A stretch of DNA of 5,653 bases from a virus (lineage: Duplodnaviria > Heunggongvirae > Uroviricota > Caudoviricetes), in the IMG/VR virus record IMGVR_UViG_3300023290_000168; one strand, 5' to 3'. Positions 2,068 through 5,653 of this stretch are shown here, piece after piece (the first letter of the stretch is position 1; every line of letters begins with the position of its first letter). The position numbers and the translations under genes were made by a program. The notes below the pieces were generated by a model. The model did not search any database, was not told where the DNA came from, and saw only the letters and a program-made list of their open reading frames with translations.

Positions 2068-2284
2068 ATCTCACCTTCCCCTGTGATTAACCTGATGATA
2101 TTGGACAAAAAAACAACGCAGGCTGACAAACGATAAAATTTGCCTTTCACGTGAGCTAAATTGCATCAATGGAGTGATTTACATCTAAAAATGAAGGTGA
2201 ATTGAGATATGGTTCACTTTAGCTCACCTAGAAGCTGAAATTTTGCCGCTATTTTTTTACACTTAAGAGAAAAATGAGGTGATT
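2068..2284. promoter_or_regulatory. Divergent dsdX / dsdC control region (promoters and presumed DsdC binding sites)
   Basis: A 217-bp AT-rich spacer between divergently oriented start codons (dsdX ATG at 2067 on minus, dsdC ATG at 2285 on plus). It contains a perfect 10-bp inverted repeat, GTGAGCTAAA at 2151-2160 and TTTAGCTCAC at 2218-2227. LysR-type regulators typically bind dyad sites in such divergent regions. Exact -35/-10 elements are not confidently assignable by eye. Confidence 0.5.
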
Positions 2285-3220
2285 ATGGAACCCCTTCGTG
2301 AAATAAGAAATCGACTGCTTAACGGCTGGCAACTATCAAAACTGCATACTTTTGAAGTGGCTGCCAGGCATCAGTCCTTCGCCCTTGCGGCAGAGGAATT
2401 GTCGCTGAGCCCCAGTGCGGTAAGTCACCGTATCAATCAGCTGGAAGAAGAATTAGGTATTCAGTTGTTTGTTCGTTCCCATCGCAAAGTGGAATTAACG
2501 CACGAGGGGAAACGTGTTTATTGGGCGCTAAAATCGTCGCTGGATACCCTGAATCAGGAAATTCTGGATATCAAAAATCAGGAGTTATCGGGAACGTTAA
2601 CGTTGTATTCCCGGCCCTCTATCGCCCAATGCTGGTTGGTGCCCGCATTAGGTGACTTTACACGCCGATATCCGTCTATTTCGCTCACCGTGCTCACTGG
2701 TAATGACAATGTCAATTTGCAACGTGCCGGAATCGATTTGGCGATCTACTTTGATGATGCGCCGTCAGCGCAATTGGCTCATCACTTTCTGATGGATGAA
2801 GAAATCCTGCCAGTTTGCAGCCCGGAGTACGCTCATAGACATGATTTAACCAACACGGTAATTAACCTGCGTCACTGTACGTTGCTCCATGACAGACAGG
2901 CATGGAGCAACGACTCCGGTACGGATGAATGGCATAGTTGGGCGCAACATTATGCGGTTAATTTGCCGACATCTTCTGGAATTGGCTTTGATCGCTCTGA
3001 TTTAGCCGTTATCGCCGCGATGAATCATATTGGGGTGGCGATGGGAAGGAAACGTCTGGTACAAAAAAGGCTTGCCAGTGGTGAGCTCGTCGCGCCGTTT
3101 GGCGATATGACGGTGAAATGCCATCAGCATTATTACATCACTACATTACCGGGCAGGCAGTGGCCAAAAATTGAGGCATTTATTACTTGGTTAAGAGAAC
3201 AGGTAAAAACCACTTCATAA
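2285..3220 (+). CDS. dsdC: LysR-type transcriptional activator of D-serine utilisation genes (311 aa)
   Basis: Track ORF 2279..3220 begins at a GTG (MIMEPL...). I prefer the ATG at 2285 (MEPLREIRNRLLNGWQL...), which has AGGTG about 5 nt upstream and gives 311 aa. N-terminal LysR-family HTH (TFEVAARHQSFALAAEELSLSPSAVSHRINQLEEELG) followed by a co-inducer-binding domain. Divergent from dsdXA, as expected for DsdC. Confidence 0.9.
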   Translation: MEPLREIRNRLLNGWQLSKLHTFEVAARHQSFALAAEELSLSPSAVSHRINQLEEELGIQLFVRSHRKVELTHEGKRVYWALKSSLDTLNQEILDIKNQELSGTLTLYSRPSIAQCWLVPALGDFTRRYPSISLTVLTGNDNVNLQRAGIDLAIYFDDAPSAQLAHHFLMDEEILPVCSPEYAHRHDLTNTVINLRHCTLLHDRQAWSNDSGTDEWHSWAQHYAVNLPTSSGIGFDRSDLAVIAAMNHIGVAMGRKRLVQKRLASGELVAPFGDMTVKCHQHYYITTLPGRQWPKIEAFITWLREQVKTTS

Positions 3221-3319
3221 TGAATAAGACCACGAGTTCCTGGTGTGCCTTATTCGGCATTGCTAGTGCGAATTTAATAATTTACGGTTTTTACGTGGTT
3301 TTAGGGATAAACACAAGAA

Positions 3320-3334
3320 TGGTGTCCCCTGCAG
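3320..3334 (-). mobile_element. Prophage attR core: displaced 3'-terminal fragment of tRNA-Arg (argW), bacterial/prophage junction
   Basis: Minus strand of 3320-3334 reads CTGCAGGGGACACCA, which matches the acceptor 3' strand plus discriminator and CCA of E. coli argW as I recall it (...GGTTCGATTCCTGCAGGGGACACCA). Similarity stops at 3335. An excisionase gene lies immediately on the prophage side and dsdC on the chromosomal side, the known context of the KplE1/CPS-53 attR. No complete tRNA is present. Confidence 0.6.
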
Positions 3335-3407
3335 ACATCTACTTGAGGCGGCAGGGGATTGATTGGAATGGTGTTTTTTAGATGTGAGAAATATTTTACC
3401 CGCTATT

Positions 3408-3608
3408 TTACCCATTGGCGCGGCTTAAGAGCTTATTTTTGAATTCACAATGGTCACGATATAACCATCTTGCTCGCCCGTGGATAACTTTGGCTTTTGG
3501 CAGGTCGCCGGACTTAATCCGGTCATAGATGAAGGTTTTACCGAAGCCAGTATCGGCCATGATGAATTTCAAATCAACCAGTGAATCAGGTTGTAGTTCG
3601 TGTTGCAT
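3408..3608 (-). CDS. torI: Prophage excisionase / recombination directionality factor (winged-helix Xis family), also known as Tor response-regulator inhibitor (66 aa)
   Basis: Track ORF of 66 aa, MQHELQPDSLVDLKFIMADTGFGKTFIYDRIKSGDLPKAKVIHGRARWLYRDHCEFKNKLLSRANG, which I recognise as TorI of KplE1. Its size and its position as the first gene inside attR fit an Xis. ATG at 3608-3606, stop TAA at 3410-3408. Confidence 0.85.
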   Translation of the reverse strand: MQHELQPDSLVDLKFIMADTGFGKTFIYDRIKSGDLPKAKVIHGRARWLYRDHCEFKNKLLSRANG

Positions 3609-3627
3609 GAGTGCTATCTCCGAATAG

Positions 3628-3643
3628 GGAATCGAACCTGCAA
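3628..3643 (-). other. tRNA-Arg T-arm-like fragment (16 nt) within the prophage arm, upstream of torI
   Basis: Minus strand of 3628-3643 reads TTGCAGGTTCGATTCC, identical to the variable-loop/T-arm segment of argW as I recall it. The flanking bases do not complete a T-stem, so this is a fragment and not a tRNA gene. Confidence 0.4.
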
Positions 3644-3650
3644 ATCAGGC

Positions 3651-3673
3651 AATAAAAAACCGCCATCAGGCGG
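3651..3673 (-). terminator. Rho-independent terminator (minus strand) after the 55-codon ORF and upstream of torI
   Basis: Minus strand reads GCCGCC-tgat-GGCGGt followed by TTTTTTATT (stem 3660-3673 region, U-tract from 3651-3659). The TGA stop of the 55-codon ORF sits in the loop. Confidence 0.6.
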
Positions 3674-3833
3674 CTTGGTGTTCTTTCAGTTCTTCAATTC
3701 GAATATTAGTTACGTCTGCATGTGCTATCTGCGCCCACAGCATCCAGTGGTCATAGCAGTCGTTGATGTTCTCTGCTTCGATAACTCTGTTGAATGGCTC
3801 TCCATTCCATTCACCTGTGACTCGGAAGTGCAT
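3666..3833 (-). CDS. Hypothetical small protein (55 aa), prophage-encoded
   Basis: Not in the track (below its size cutoff). My own translation from ATG 3833-3831 gives MHFRVTGEWNGEPFNRVIEAENINDCYDHWMLWAQIAHADVTNIRIEELKEHQAA, ending at TGA 3668-3666. GGAG lies 7 nt upstream of the ATG (plus-strand CTCC at 3841-3844) and an intrinsic terminator follows directly. Caveat: two terminator-like hairpins sit immediately upstream and there is no obvious dedicated promoter. Confidence 0.4.
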   Translation of the reverse strand: MHFRVTGEWNGEPFNRVIEAENINDCYDHWMLWAQIAHADVTNIRIEELKEHQAA

Positions 3834-3841
3834 TTATCATC

Positions 3842-3868
3842 TCCATAAAACAAAACCCGCCGTAGCGA
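3842..3868 (-). terminator. Terminator-like hairpin 2 (minus strand): CTCGC-tacg-GCGGG followed by TTTTGTTTTAT
   Basis: Minus-strand stem at 3855-3868 (5 bp, one G-U pair, 4-nt loop) followed by a U-rich tract at 3842-3854, immediately upstream of the RBS of the 55-codon ORF. Confidence 0.45.
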
Positions 3869-3872
3869 GTTC

Positions 3873-3901
3873 AGATAAAAGAAATCCCCGCGAGTGCGAG
3901 G
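3873..3901 (-). terminator. Rho-independent terminator 1 (minus strand) ending the coupled cassette: CCTCGC-actc-GCGGGG followed by ATTTCTTTTATCT
   Basis: Minus-strand stem at 3886-3901 (6 bp, GC-rich, one G-U pair, 4-nt loop), beginning 4 nt after the stop of the ASCH-fold gene, then a U-rich tract at 3873-3885. Confidence 0.5.
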
Positions 3902-3905
3902 ATTA

Positions 3906-4190
3906 TCATTCATTGTCGATATTCACCTTTATAGCGAACACCTTTACCGGTTTATCGCCGAAGTGCGGATGTGTGATTGTCTTGATTTCATATCCGTCAT
4001 ACGGGACGTCAATTCTGCGGCTGGAATCGTCGCGCTTCGGATATCCCTTTGTGATAATCAGGCGGTCATACTCGCGGAACATAATTCGCTTATTCCAGTA
4101 GTCATTACACAGGCGATACTCTTCCGTTTTCTCTCCGCGAATCATGGCATCGAAGTATTCACCTTTAACGGCAAGTTGCAGGTTAGCCAC
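3906..4190 (-). CDS. ASCH-domain (PUA-like fold) protein, 94 aa, prophage-encoded
   Basis: Track ORF of 94 aa, MANLQLAVKGEYFDAMIRGEKTEEYRL..., with a G19-x-K21-x-x-E24-x-R26 match to the ASCH signature GxKxxExR. GTG start at 4190-4188 preceded by AAGGAGG with a 6-nt spacer; stop TGA at 3908-3906. The start overlaps the end of the upstream gene by 8 nt. Confidence 0.75.
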   Translation of the reverse strand: MANLQLAVKGEYFDAMIRGEKTEEYRLCNDYWNKRIMFREYDRLIITKGYPKRDDSSRRIDVPYDGYEIKTITHPHFGDKPVKVFAIKVNIDNE

Positions 4191-4467
4191 GACCTTCCTC
4201 CTTTGGCTTGTGAATTTGTATCGTCATGCCGCTTTGAGTGGTGACTACAACGACAGAACCAGGCTGAAGACTGTTAAGATTGAATGCTTCGTAAAACGAA
4301 GCCAAGGCCAGCGCTTTTTTATTCTTTCGGTTCCACCAACGCCATCCATTGCTACAGGCTACACTGACAATCCACTGTCCACTCCTGTAAGCCATATAAA
4401 ACCAGATGAGCAAAACCTGAATGAATGCTATCCAGTCAATAATCGTATATTTCGCGAAGGAGACCAT
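4183..4467 (-). CDS. Small single-pass membrane protein (94 aa), hypothetical, prophage-encoded
   Basis: Track ORF 4183..4470 begins at a TTG. I prefer the ATG at 4467-4465 (MVSFAKYTIIDWIAFIQVLLIWFYMAYRSGQW...), which has AGGAGG 7 nt upstream. One N-terminal hydrophobic helix (about residues 8-27) followed by a basic stretch (WRWWNRKNKK). The ATG overlaps the TGA of the upstream gene (TGATG). Confidence 0.6.
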   Translation of the reverse strand: MVSFAKYTIIDWIAFIQVLLIWFYMAYRSGQWIVSVACSNGWRWWNRKNKKALALASFYEAFNLNSLQPGSVVVVTTQSGMTIQIHKPKEEGRG

Positions 4468-5132
4468 CAATTAACCTCCTGCGGCGGTTCCGGTAGAGGC
4501 ATCCAGTACAAGGCGTTCCCTAACCACGATAAAGTGCCGTCGCTCAACTCCACGTATTCCCCTTGTACCTGTCCTGCCATATACTCGCCGTGCTTTGAAT
4601 AAATTAAAATCCAATCATCTTGAGCGGGCATTCGCTCACTACAGCTTATCCAACCATCCGGAGTTACCGGATAGTTGCCAGCCTCATACGCGACCCTTAT
4701 CCAGTGCATAAACATTTCAGTACTTACACATCCACAATCAACATCAATTTTGTCATGCTGCTGTTCCAGCCATTGCTCAAAAGTTAACTTGTAAGTTTGG
4801 CTTACAGGTTCGGCTTCCAGTTCTGCAATGCGCTTCTCTGCAGCTTCCAGCTCAACGCGCAGCTTCCCTACCGTTAGCGCAATTTCCTCGTTCTCCTGGT
4901 CGCGGCGTTTGATGTATTGCTGGTTTCTTTCCCGTTCATCCAGCAGCGCCAGCACGGTTTCTGGTCCGGTCAGAAATTTGAAGGCGTTGAGCGCATCAAT
5001 ATCCACACCGTAATCCTTAAGTTCCTGTTCACTTAACAAATCATCATCAACTGGCAACATTAACAGGCGTTCCATTGCCGGAATTGCACGTTCTGCCGCC
5101 TCACGCAGTGCCTGATAGTTAATTTTGGTCAT
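4467..5132 (-). CDS. Phage protein with N-terminal coiled-coil region and C-terminal DUF551-like domain (Ea22-like family), 221 aa
   Basis: Track ORF of 221 aa. N-terminus MTKINYQALREAAERA... and the coiled-coil-like VGKLRVELEAAEKRIAELEAE resemble Ea22-like prophage proteins. C-terminus WISCSERMPAQDDWILIY...LYWMPLPEPP matches the DUF551 pattern as I remember it. ATG at 5132-5130 with GGGGGA RBS; only 1 nt separates it from the stop of the upstream gene. Confidence 0.8.
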   Translation of the reverse strand: MTKINYQALREAAERAIPAMERLLMLPVDDDLLSEQELKDYGVDIDALNAFKFLTGPETVLALLDERERNQQYIKRRDQENEEIALTVGKLRVELEAAEKRIAELEAEPVSQTYKLTFEQWLEQQHDKIDVDCGCVSTEMFMHWIRVAYEAGNYPVTPDGWISCSERMPAQDDWILIYSKHGEYMAGQVQGEYVELSDGTLSWLGNALYWMPLPEPPQEVN

Positions 5133-5133
5133 A

Positions 5134-5433
5134 TCACATCCCCCTGAAGCCGTTGCATTTACGTAAAAAATCGCAGATATAGCCCTTCATTTTTTCGTGC
5201 CAATCTCGATCATTCCCATTGCACCAACCATCAGGTGGAGTCCAGTTTTCTATCAGAGCAGCCATTTTCTTTGCTTTCGCCGGAGTAGCTGTTGCGGTAT
5301 CGCAGTAATGACGAGTGTCAACCAACGTATCCATACCATCGATATCAAGTACGCAAAACCATGTGTGATTCGGCATTTCAACAGATGGTATTTGTTGCCC
5401 ACGTCGACGTTTATCAATAAGACATACAGTCAC
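5134..5433 (-). CDS. Hypothetical phage protein (99 aa), Cys-rich
   Basis: Track ORF of 99 aa, MTVCLIDKRRRGQQIPSVEMPNHTWFCVLDIDG... GTG start at 5433-5431 preceded by AAGGAGG with a 6-nt spacer. The start overlaps the stop of the upstream partial ORF (GTGA). Six cysteines. I recognise no domain. Confidence 0.65.
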   Translation of the reverse strand: MTVCLIDKRRRGQQIPSVEMPNHTWFCVLDIDGMDTLVDTRHYCDTATATPAKAKKMAALIENWTPPDGWCNGNDRDWHEKMKGYICDFLRKCNGFRGM

Positions 5434-5653
5434 TGGTTGCCTCCTTTGCGAAGCTGGGCAGCAAAGTCAACTAACCACTCAGTCATTTCAACCTTCCCTA
5501 CCAGGTCTGAACCAGGGTGCATACAGCAATCACTCTGCGCCGCTTTGAAATCCTTATACTCATATTCTTGGGCCACCAGATTTTTTGCAGCTTCTATAGC
5601 TGAACCGCCCCGGGAATCCTGGAGACTAAACTTCCTGAGAAAGAGGTAAACAG
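5430..5653 (-). CDS. Hypothetical phage protein, C-terminal 74 codons (5' end beyond right edge)
   Basis: Not in the track because it is edge-truncated. The minus-strand frame is open from the window edge to TGA at 5432-5430. My translation reads ...VYLFLRKFSLQDSRGGSAIEAAKNLVAQEYEYKDFKAAQSDCCMHPGSDLVGKVEMTEWLVDFAAQLRKGGNQ. Its stop overlaps the next gene's GTG, as in the rest of the cassette. Confidence 0.5.
   Translation of the reverse strand, partial: VYLFLRKFSLQDSRGGSAIEAAKNLVAQEYEYKDFKAAQSDCCMHPGSDLVGKVEMTEWLVDFAAQLRKGGNQ

What the first reader, a model, noticed from the sequence alone, without database searches (positions are those of the whole stretch)
4183..4467. Small single-pass membrane protein translationally coupled between the DUF551-like and ASCH genes
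The protein has one N-terminal hydrophobic helix (YTIIDWIAFIQVLLIWFYMAY), then a Trp/Arg/Lys-rich juxtamembrane segment and a short soluble tail. Its ATG overlaps the upstream stop and its last codons contain the RBS of the ASCH gene. Small membrane proteins in prophage early regions are often exclusion or host-takeover factors, but that is inference only.
Basis: inference. Interest (0 to 1): 0.4.

Follow-up and report, generated by a model that had tools for sequence, protein, structure and literature searches.

The report
Known phage DUF4752 small membrane protein
This is a real 94-residue gene of the E. coli prophage CUS-3 that very probably makes a small membrane-anchored protein, but it belongs to an already catalogued family of unknown function (DUF4752) found in about a tenth of E. 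coli genomes, so it is an ordinary uncharacterised phage accessory gene.

Summary
The ATG shares one base with the upstream stop (TGATG). An AGGAGG Shine-Dalgarno lies 7 nt upstream. The last codons carry the GGAGG and GTG start of the downstream ASCH gene (8-nt overlap).

The window is the dsdX-dsdC-torI edge of P22-like prophage CUS-3. The protein is identical to CUS-3 ECRS218_0060 and RefSeq WP_000253289.1, "DUF4752 family protein" (Pfam PF15944, E 3e-34; phrog_667). It occurs in 546 of 5,426 complete E. coli genomes.

The frame is under purifying selection (pN/pS 0.22), whereas the antisense shadow ORF evolves neutrally (0.98).

The hydrophobic segment scores like the transmembrane helices of DsdX in the same window and unlike any soluble neighbour. 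Across the family the segment stays uncharged, with flank charges of about -0.6 (N) and +5.2 (C). This predicts an N-out/C-in single-pass anchor. AlphaFold2 gives one long helix plus a C-terminal beta-hairpin.

No homologue, fold match or paper gives a function. The gene sits in the repressed early-left operon with no promoter of its own. That favours a role in lytic growth over exclusion by the lysogen. About 1 in 8 sampled genomes carry frameshifted copies, mostly at an A6 run.

Verdict: already known family, low interest.

The parts
4183..4467 (-). DUF4752 family gene (94 aa + stop); identical to CUS-3 ECRS218_0060 / WP_000253289.1
   Evidence: ORF and translation. Pfam PF15944 E 3e-34, 117 bits against a cut-off of 27, covering profile positions 2-84 of 84. 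phrog_667 E 2.6e-38. 100% identity in CUS-3 and UTI89. pN/pS 0.22.
4387..4446 (-). Codons 8-27: predicted transmembrane helix (TIIDWIAFIQVLLIWFYMAY)
   Evidence: KD19 1.82, Hessa +2.7, WW-octanol -13.1, calibrated on DsdX against soluble neighbours. Family alignment columns 12-27 are uncharged in >= 96% of members. AF2 helix 4-47 with pLDDT 88-89 over residues 11-30.
4315..4386 (-). Codons 28-51: juxtamembrane segment. It contains K/R at residue 28, the near-invariant W32, a short hydrophobic patch at 32-38, and the basic Trp-rich cluster GWRWWNRKNKK
   Evidence: Family column statistics: K/R 72% at position 28, W 96% at position 32, K/R-rich at 43-51. Net charge of the 25 residues after the helix is +6 here and averages +5.2 in the family.
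4315..4320 (-). A6 homopolymer (AAT AAA AAA GCG) that is a recurrent frameshift site
   Evidence: A7 in APEC O1 and AF6, and A7 on a different allele background in UCPROB-002. A one-base deletion at the run in S163-2. Database proteins P0020 (+1 type) and P0022/P0025 (-1 type).
4186..4314 (-). Codons 52-94: predicted cytoplasmic tail, an amphipathic helix (about 50-61) followed by a beta-hairpin (72-76 / 82-86)
   Evidence: AF2 of the target (pLDDT about 56-60 in this part). AF2 of the distant member P0060 (mean pLDDT 87, hairpin 67-71 / 77-81). Alternating hydrophobic columns at 73, 75, 81, 83, 85 and helix positions 54, 55, 58, 61, 62, 64, 67.
4465..4480 (-). Start junction: SD AGGAGG (4480-4475), 7-nt spacer, and the ATG overlapping the upstream TGA (TGATG)
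   Evidence: Sequence. T(G/A)ATG with a 1-nt overlap in 78 of 79 related loci. The upstream proteins differ in body but end in PEPPQEV[K/N].
4183..4201 (-). End junction: GGAGG (4201-4197) and the GTG start (4190-4188) of the ASCH gene lie inside the target's last codons; the stop TAA is at 4185-4183
   Evidence: Sequence. The same junction is in 66 of 80 related loci. Synonymous diversity drops to 0.0085 in codons 87-94, against 0.05-0.09 elsewhere.
4467..5132 (-). Upstream gene: Ead/Ea22-like + DUF551 protein (221 aa)
   Evidence: Pfam PF13935 E 4.2e-29 and PF04448 E 7.2e-11.
3906..4190 (-). Downstream gene: 94-aa protein with a GTG start. RefSeq calls it 'ASCH domain-containing protein' (WP_000002106.1); it matches phrog_625
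   Evidence: The Pfam ASCH hit is only E 0.068, below threshold.

Best explanation
The ORF is a genuine accessory gene of the P22-like temperate phage CUS-3 and a member of family DUF4752. It is transcribed as part of the long early-left (PL) operon that runs from the repressor region towards torI and attR. It is translated by coupling to its neighbours: its own strong Shine-Dalgarno sits in the conserved tail of the upstream DUF551-type gene, and its last codons carry the ribosome-binding site and start of the downstream ASCH gene.

The product is most likely a bitopic inner-membrane protein. A short, neutral or acidic N-tail faces the periplasm. One transmembrane helix spans about residues 8-27. 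That helix continues into a basic, Trp-rich juxtamembrane helix lying at the cytoplasmic face. A small cytoplasmic helix-plus-beta-hairpin module of about 40 residues follows and would be the part that contacts a partner.

The operon is repressed in the lysogen, so the protein would act during lytic growth or after induction. It would be a dispensable, membrane-located modulator of some host or competitor function, and it would not act as a standing exclusion device of the lysogen.

Shown: the gene is real, its family membership, selection on the frame, the coupling geometry, the conserved hydrophobic and charge pattern, and the predicted architecture.
Inferred: membrane insertion, topology, timing of expression, and any function.
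For: Identity and family: Pfam DUF4752 at 117 bits, full length. phrog_667. RefSeq name, and 100% identity to CUS-3 and UTI89 proteins.

Real coding frame: 44 DNA alleles give pN/pS 0.22 in this frame, against 0.83-2.65 in four other frames, 0.46 in the fifth (which has stop codons in all 44 alleles), and 0.98 in the antisense long-ORF frame. Homologues down to about 20% identity keep the same layout.

Coupling: the T(G/A)ATG overlap is in 78 of 79 loci despite mosaic upstream genes. The ASCH start lies 8 nt inside the gene in 66 of 80 loci. Synonymous variation is suppressed in the last 8 codons.

Membrane anchor: three hydropathy scales place residues 8-26 within the range of DsdX transmembrane helices and far from the soluble neighbours. 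18 of 29 family members reach KD >= 1.6. Alignment columns 12-27 are uncharged in >= 96% of members. The mean flank charge is -0.6 on the N side and +5.2 on the C side.

Operon context: all genes from the repressor region to torI lie on the same strand. No sigma-70-like promoter was found on that strand in 3200-5653. Terminator-like hairpins appear only after the ASCH gene.
Against: - No dedicated topology predictor (DeepTMHMM, TMHMM, Phobius) could be run.
- On the Hessa biological scale the segment is marginal (+2.7 kcal/mol).
- In the E. coli clade the segment carries invariant polar residues D11 and Q17.
- The strictly uncharged core is only 16 residues long.
- 11 of 29 family members fall below the classical KD 1.6 threshold, and one (P0057) has no hydrophobic N-terminus at all.
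- The AF2 confidence for the target's own C-terminal half is low (pLDDT 56-60).
- The promoter scan is a simple consensus search and cannot exclude weak or non-sigma-70 promoters.
- No expression, localisation or phenotype data exist.
Confidence: 0.65

Rival explanations
1. The protein is a prophage-expressed superinfection-exclusion or defence protein. It would sit in the inner membrane of the lysogen and block DNA entry or abort infection by other phages.
For: It is a small, probably membrane-anchored protein with a cytoplasmic tail. It is an accessory gene that moves between different phage backbones and positions. Known exclusion proteins of P22-like phages, such as SieA, are inner-membrane proteins (PMC10883804).
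Against: - It lies deep in the repressed PL operon and is coupled to its neighbours, with no promoter-like site of its own. P22 sieA, sieB and gtrABC are expressed from the prophage.
- There is no significant PADLOC hit (best: KwaA, E 0.055) and no SieA/SieB-type Pfam or PHROG hit.
- About 5 of 40 sampled genomes carry frameshifted copies. That fits poorly with a function selected in the lysogen.
Confidence: 0.12
2. The protein is a membrane-active toxic or lysis-modulating protein (holin-like, antiholin-like or Kil-like). Leaky expression would harm the host, which would explain the recurrent inactivation in prophages.
For: The layout is a small single transmembrane helix plus a highly basic C-proximal region. 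There are independent frameshifts at homopolymers on at least three allele backgrounds and truncated database entries. One distant member (P0067) lies directly after a holin / 132-aa / DUF2570 lysis cluster.
Against: - All other sampled members sit in early or replication-proximal accessory regions, not in lysis cassettes.
- There is no hit to any holin, spanin or Kil family.
- Frameshifts at an A6 run are also what neutral decay of a silent prophage gene would produce.
- The frameshift alleles keep the transmembrane helix and basic region. A membrane toxin would then probably still be active.
Confidence: 0.13
3. The protein is soluble, and its hydrophobic N-terminal helix is buried in a homo-oligomeric coiled coil or helical bundle. 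Under this reading it would not span the membrane.
Against: - The hydrophobic stretch is conserved in character but not in sequence. It has no heptad-like polar periodicity (hydrophobic moment 0.14-0.22 over residues 1-26).
- There is a strong, conserved charge asymmetry across it.
- Its scores equal those of genuine DsdX helices on all three scales.
Confidence: 0.1

Closest known systems
Pfam DUF4752 (PF15944) / PHROG phrog_667; RefSeq WP_000253289.1 'DUF4752 family protein'; CUS-3 ECRS218_0060
   Same: The sequence is identical to the RefSeq and CUS-3 entries. It matches the Pfam model over its full length at 117 bits, with the same length and layout as the other members.
   Different: Nothing differs; this is that protein. 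The family has no assigned function, no solved structure and no literature. It is small: 44 clusters at 50% identity among 1.84 billion representatives.
P22 SieA and similar phage inner-membrane superinfection-exclusion proteins
   Same: Both are phage-encoded, non-essential, small inner-membrane proteins of P22-like or lambdoid temperate phages (PMC10883804).
   Different: SieA has three predicted transmembrane segments, is 162-164 aa long and is expressed from the prophage. The target has one predicted transmembrane helix, is 94 aa long, sits in the repressed PL operon, and shares no detectable sequence or family relationship with SieA.
Bitopic 'transmembrane helix continuing into a long helix' proteins such as FtsL and ATP synthase subunit b
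K-12 KplE1/CPS-53 genes yfdS-yfdT at the same chromosomal locus
   Same: The integration site (argW/dsdC), the torI end and the DUF551 gene are the same. YfdT ends with the same QQEVK junction tail. The yfdQRST cluster has reported phenotypes on replication initiation when overexpressed (PMC4776307).
   Different: K-12 has no DUF4752 gene and no ASCH gene. YfdT is unrelated in sequence. None of the K-12 data transfer to this protein.

Membership tests
Pfam DUF4752 (PF15944) | Score above the curated gathering threshold of the family HMM | tested here: met
   117.4 bits against a cut-off of 27, E 3e-34.
Pfam DUF4752 (PF15944) | Full-length coverage of the domain model | tested here: met
   Residues 8-91 match profile positions 2-84 of 84. 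A profile search recovers only DUF4752-type proteins, plus one spurious repeat protein.
PHROG phrog_667 | Significant full-length HMM match | tested here: met
   E 2.6e-38, residues 1-93 on profile positions 1-92 of 94.
Single-pass (bitopic) inner-membrane proteins | One hydrophobic helix long and hydrophobic enough to span the bilayer | tested here: met
   KD19 1.82, WW-octanol -13.1 and Hessa +2.7, all within the DsdX transmembrane range. Marginal on the Hessa scale. No dedicated predictor was available.
Single-pass (bitopic) inner-membrane proteins | Experimental membrane localisation and topology | not testable with these tools
   This needs fractionation and reporter fusions. Only the positive-inside pattern (N flank -0.6, C flank +5.2) is available.
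Prophage superinfection-exclusion proteins (SieA/SieB type) | Expression from the prophage in the lysogen (own promoter, outside repressed operons) | tested here: not met
   The gene is inside the PL operon and overlaps both neighbours. No promoter-like site was found on its strand in 3200-5653. The consensus scan is crude, so this result is weak.
Prophage superinfection-exclusion proteins (SieA/SieB type) | Sequence relationship to a known exclusion or defence family | tested here: not met
   Pfam, PHROGs, NCBIfam and PADLOC give no such hit. The best PADLOC hit is KwaA at E 0.055.
Prophage superinfection-exclusion proteins (SieA/SieB type) | Exclusion phenotype against superinfecting phages | not testable with these tools
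   This requires plating assays.
Holins / lysis-cassette membrane proteins | Location in the lysis cassette and a match to a holin family | tested here: not met
   The gene lies in the early-left region next to attR. There is no holin hit. Only one distant member lies beside lysis genes.
Lipoproteins / secreted proteins | A cleavable signal peptide or a lipobox | tested here: not met
   By inspection of the sequence there is no [LVI][ASTVI][GAS]C lipobox; residues 35-38 are S-V-A-C. C38 is not conserved. There is no basic n-region, and a strongly basic segment follows the hydrophobic helix.

The most novel reading that the evidence does not exclude
DUF4752 proteins could be a so far unrecognised class of membrane-tethered phage early effectors. 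The cytoplasmic helix-hairpin module, held at the inner leaflet by the anchor and the WRWW/basic collar, would bind and neutralise or hijack a host membrane-associated machine. Candidates include a membrane-bound defence system, a transporter used by competing phages, or the divisome. The recurrent homopolymer frameshifts in prophages would then reflect selection against a costly protein. Nothing found here excludes this reading, and nothing specifically supports it.
Probability: 0.2. Interest if true: 0.45.

Novelty: already known. Interest (0 to 1): 0.18.

Why it matters
The practical value is small. The gene can be labelled with confidence as a DUF4752 family protein, a predicted N-out/C-in bitopic inner-membrane protein of the CUS-3 early-left operon.

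The family is narrow. It is found in temperate phages of Enterobacterales: 44 clusters at 50% identity, and about 10% of complete E. coli genomes. It is wholly uncharacterised. A simple expression and phage-plating experiment could give it a function and add one more entry to the list of small phage membrane effectors.

It does not bear on any long-standing open question. A phage specialist would not be surprised by a small hydrophobic accessory ORF in the ea region.

Tried and rejected
1. Function by homology. Pfam, PHROGs, NCBIfam and PADLOC gave only DUF4752 / phrog_667 and sub-threshold noise (KwaA E 0.055; acylphosphatase E 0.082).

2. Solved structures by sequence profile gave nothing below E = 1.

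4. Literature. There were no papers for DUF4752, PF15944, phrog_667, WP_000253289 or ECRS218_0060. The K-12 yfdQRST paper turned out not to concern this gene, because K-12 lacks it.

5. A fixed partner gene. DUF551 is adjacent or nearby in several contexts, but the neighbours vary: NinB, Lar, DnaB, Mu-like genes and lysis genes. No conserved pair was found.

6. The antisense 152-aa ORF (4144-4602, + strand) as the real gene was rejected. Its pN/pS is 0.98 and it has stops in 2 of 44 alleles.

7. The TTG at 4470 as the start was rejected. That position varies among loci (GTG, TTG, GTA, ATG before the ATG), the spacing to the SD would be only 4 nt, and all homologues start at the ATG.

8. Lipoprotein or signal-peptide readings were rejected by inspection of the sequence.

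9. Phase variation at the A6 run was considered. A 6-nt run is short for a contingency locus and one frameshift lies elsewhere (a T4 run), so I treat these as ordinary decay.

10. A search of related loci with the diverse alignment failed for lack of a conserved peptide stretch. The species-level genome scan found only Kosakonia oryziphila and a probably mis-binned MAG contig.

Full report
**What is there**

The window is E. coli chromosome carrying dsdX (730-2067, minus) and dsdC (2279-3220, plus). These are followed by the right-hand end of a P22-like prophage. All prophage genes lie on the minus strand:
- torI (3408-3608)
- a 55-aa phrog_676 gene (3666-3833)
- a 94-aa gene that RefSeq calls ASCH (3906-4190)
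- the target (4183-4467)
- an Ead/Ea22 + DUF551 gene (4467-5132)
- a DUF7739 gene (5134-5433)

The region is 99.9-100% identical to the argW/dsdC prophage of B2-type strains such as UTI89 and APEC O1, and to phage CUS-3 (CP000711). In CUS-3 the target is ECRS218_0060. The finding's coordinates are correct, but the gene is on the minus strand.

**Checking the observation**

The ORF encodes 94 residues.

- Start. The ATG (4467-4465) shares its A with the TGA of the upstream gene (TGATG). It is preceded by AGGAGG (4480-4475) at a 7-nt spacing.
- End. The stop TAA is at 4185-4183. The downstream gene starts at GTG 4190-4188, with GGAGG at 4201-4197 inside the target's codons. The two genes overlap by 8 nt.
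- Conservation. In 80 related viral loci the upstream 1-nt stop/start overlap is present in 78 of 79 scorable cases. The ASCH start inside the gene is present in 66 of 80.
- Dual use. Synonymous diversity falls to 0.0085 in the last eight codons, against 0.05-0.09 elsewhere. This fits double use of that DNA.

**Is it a real gene?**

Yes.

- Among 44 distinct DNA alleles the pooled pN/pS is 0.22 in this frame, and the median pairwise dN/dS is 0.16.
- Four of the other five frames give 0.83-2.65. The fifth gives 0.46 but has stop codons in all 44 alleles.
- A 152-aa ORF on the plus strand (4144-4602) overlaps the gene codon for codon. It evolves neutrally (0.98) and is interrupted in 2 of 44 alleles, so it is a shadow ORF.
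- Homologues down to about 20% identity keep the same length and layout.

**What it is**

The protein is a full-length member of Pfam DUF4752 (PF15944; 117 bits against a cut-off of 27) and of phrog_667. RefSeq names the identical sequence WP_000253289.1 "DUF4752 family protein". That exact sequence is recorded on at least 1,000 contigs.

The gene is present in 546 of 5,426 complete E. coli genomes. It is also found in 70 deposited phage genomes: lambdoid, P22-like, Stx-converting, Klebsiella, Salmonella epsilon15-like and Hafnia phages.

The family is narrow.
- An exhaustive profile search of 1.84 billion representative proteins found 44 clusters.
- A scan of one genome per species found only Kosakonia oryziphila and a probably mis-binned contig.

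No paper in the library mentions the family or any of its identifiers.

**Membrane anchor**

No dedicated predictor was available. I used three hydropathy scales with internal controls from the same window.

| Measure (best 19-residue window) | Target, residues 8-26 | DsdX hydrophobic peaks (12) | Soluble neighbours (ASCH, DUF551, DUF7739, TorI, DsdC, 55-aa) |
|---|---|---|---|
| Kyte-Doolittle mean | 1.82 | 1.65 to 2.88 | <= 0.90 |
| Hessa-2005 sum (kcal/mol) | +2.7 | -3.7 to +4.7 | >= 9.3 |
| Wimley-White octanol sum | -13.1 | +2.8 to -13.6 | >= -4.1 |

Family-level evidence:
- 18 of 29 members reach KD >= 1.6.
- Alignment columns 12-27 carry no charge in at least 96% of members, although their sequence varies.
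- Position 28 is K/R in 72% of members, and W32 is nearly invariant.
- A basic cluster follows.
- The net flank charge averages -0.6 on the N side and +5.2 on the C side.

By the positive-inside rule (established knowledge) this predicts an N-out/C-in signal-anchor.

Caveats:
- The Hessa value is marginal.
- D11 and Q17 are invariant in the E. coli clade.
- The strictly uncharged core is only 16 residues long.
- One family member has no hydrophobic N-terminus.

**Predicted structure**

- AlphaFold2 on the target with a 29-sequence alignment gives one unbroken helix at 4-47 (pLDDT 88-89 over residues 11-30), a second helix at 50-61, and a beta-hairpin at 72-76 / 82-86. Confidence in the C-terminal half is low.
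- A 23%-identical member (P0060) gives the same architecture with confidence. Mean pLDDT is 87, with a helix at 2-57 and a hairpin at 67-71 / 77-81.

**Context and likely role**

In CUS-3, APEC O1 and UTI89 the gene lies at the far end of the leftward early operon. The order is repressor region, then kil and cIII, erf, anti-RecBCD, DUF7739, Ead/DUF551, DUF4752, ASCH, the 55-aa gene, and torI. A consensus scan finds no promoter-like site on that strand between 3200 and 5653. Terminator-like hairpins appear only after the ASCH gene and after the 55-aa gene.

Expression is therefore expected only when PL is derepressed. This is an inference from lambdoid and P22 biology. Known P22 exclusion functions, by contrast, are expressed from the prophage (PMC10883804).

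Distant family members sit in other accessory slots:
- between DUF551 and NinB
- next to Lar and NinB
- after DnaB
- in a Mu-like early region
- once directly after a holin / DUF2570 lysis cluster

No partner gene is fixed. The protein thus behaves as a free-standing, mobile accessory module.

**Decay in prophages**

Of 40 E. coli hits sampled evenly down the ranking, 5 have length-changing alleles, and RefSeq marks them as frameshifted. I sequenced-checked four of these plus APEC O1, which is also marked frameshifted. Among these five alleles, four changes are at the A6 run (window 4315-4320):
- A7 in APEC O1 and AF6
- A7 on a different allele background in UCPROB-002
- a one-base deletion in S163-2

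The fifth is in a T4 run. Truncated database proteins of 64 and 73 aa correspond to these +1 and -1 events. This looks like ordinary decay of a gene that is silent in the lysogen. Counter-selection of a costly protein cannot be excluded.

**Comparison with the known, and novelty**

This is that family, identical to annotated entries, so the finding is already known as an object. What is not known is its function.

The K-12 prophage at the same site (KplE1/CPS-53) lacks the gene. YfdS (DUF551) is followed by YfdT, which is unrelated, although it ends in the same QQEVK junction tail. The published yfdQRST phenotypes therefore do not apply.

**Verdict**

- The membrane-protein reading is well supported but not proven.
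- The exclusion or host-takeover idea is unsupported. Its lysogen-expressed form is disfavoured by the gene's context.
- Interest is low.

Noticed in passing
window 4467-4490 (minus strand); loci L005-L084; L097:3374-3679: The genes upstream of DUF4752 are highly mosaic (58-341 aa, different bodies). Nearly all end in the same tail ...WMPLPEPPQEV[K/N] followed by T(G/A)ATG. K-12 YfdT, an unrelated protein at the same prophage position, also ends in QQEVK. The conserved tail encodes the target's Shine-Dalgarno. It looks like a module boundary at which lambdoid early genes are shuffled.
   Followed up: partly
window 4315-4320 (minus strand A6 run): This is a recurrent frameshift hotspot in the DUF4752 gene. 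A7 or a one-base deletion occurs on at least three allele backgrounds, giving 64-aa or 73-aa products that keep the hydrophobic helix and basic collar. About 5 of 40 sampled E. coli genomes carry a frameshifted copy.
   Followed up: partly
window 3319-3334 and 3628-3643 (both minus strand), flanking torI 3408-3608: Two short sequences flank torI, and by my recollection of the argW tRNA sequence both resemble its 3' end. TTGCAGGTTCGATTCC lies just upstream of torI and is the 'attR core' at which GenBank CP000711 ends CUS-3, so that record excludes the excisionase gene torI. CTGCAGGGGACACCAT lies downstream of torI, at the position of K-12 pawZ, where RefSeq ends CPS-53 with torI included. The two annotations disagree on whether torI belongs to the prophage.
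   Followed up: partly
window 4144-4602 (+) and 3894-4244 (+): These are long antisense ORFs of 152 aa and 116 aa, lying opposite the DUF4752 / DUF551 genes and the ASCH gene. The first evolves neutrally (pN/pS 0.98, stops in 2 of 44 alleles). The second is annotated as a CDS (ECRS218_0062) in the CUS-3 GenBank record and is probably a spurious call.
   Followed up: partly
L091:1274-2767: In one distant phage the DUF4752 member (P0067) lies directly after a holin (Phage_holin_3_1), a 132-aa gene and a DUF2570 gene, that is, at the end of a lysis cassette. All other sampled members lie in early operons.
   Followed up: no
window 3906-4190 (minus): The 'ASCH' gene starts with GTG. Its Pfam ASCH match is below threshold (E 0.068, only residues 6-28). 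The label rests on RefSeq naming and phrog_625, which has no function assigned.
   Followed up: no
window 4467-5132 (minus): In this window the Ead/Ea22 + DUF551 gene is one intact 221-aa ORF. In UTI89 and APEC O1 the same region is annotated as a truncated Ead/Ea22 pseudogene plus a 54-aa ORF. The best genome matches to 3300-5653 align in two or three pieces, so this part of the prophage is rearranged between otherwise near-identical strains.
   Followed up: no
window 3883-3904, 3853-3872, 3657-3676 (minus strand): There are three terminator-like hairpins with T-runs. Two lie in tandem just after the ASCH gene. One lies after the 55-aa gene, immediately before the att-like sequence and torI. 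The scan found 5 such sites against 2.2 expected.
   Followed up: no
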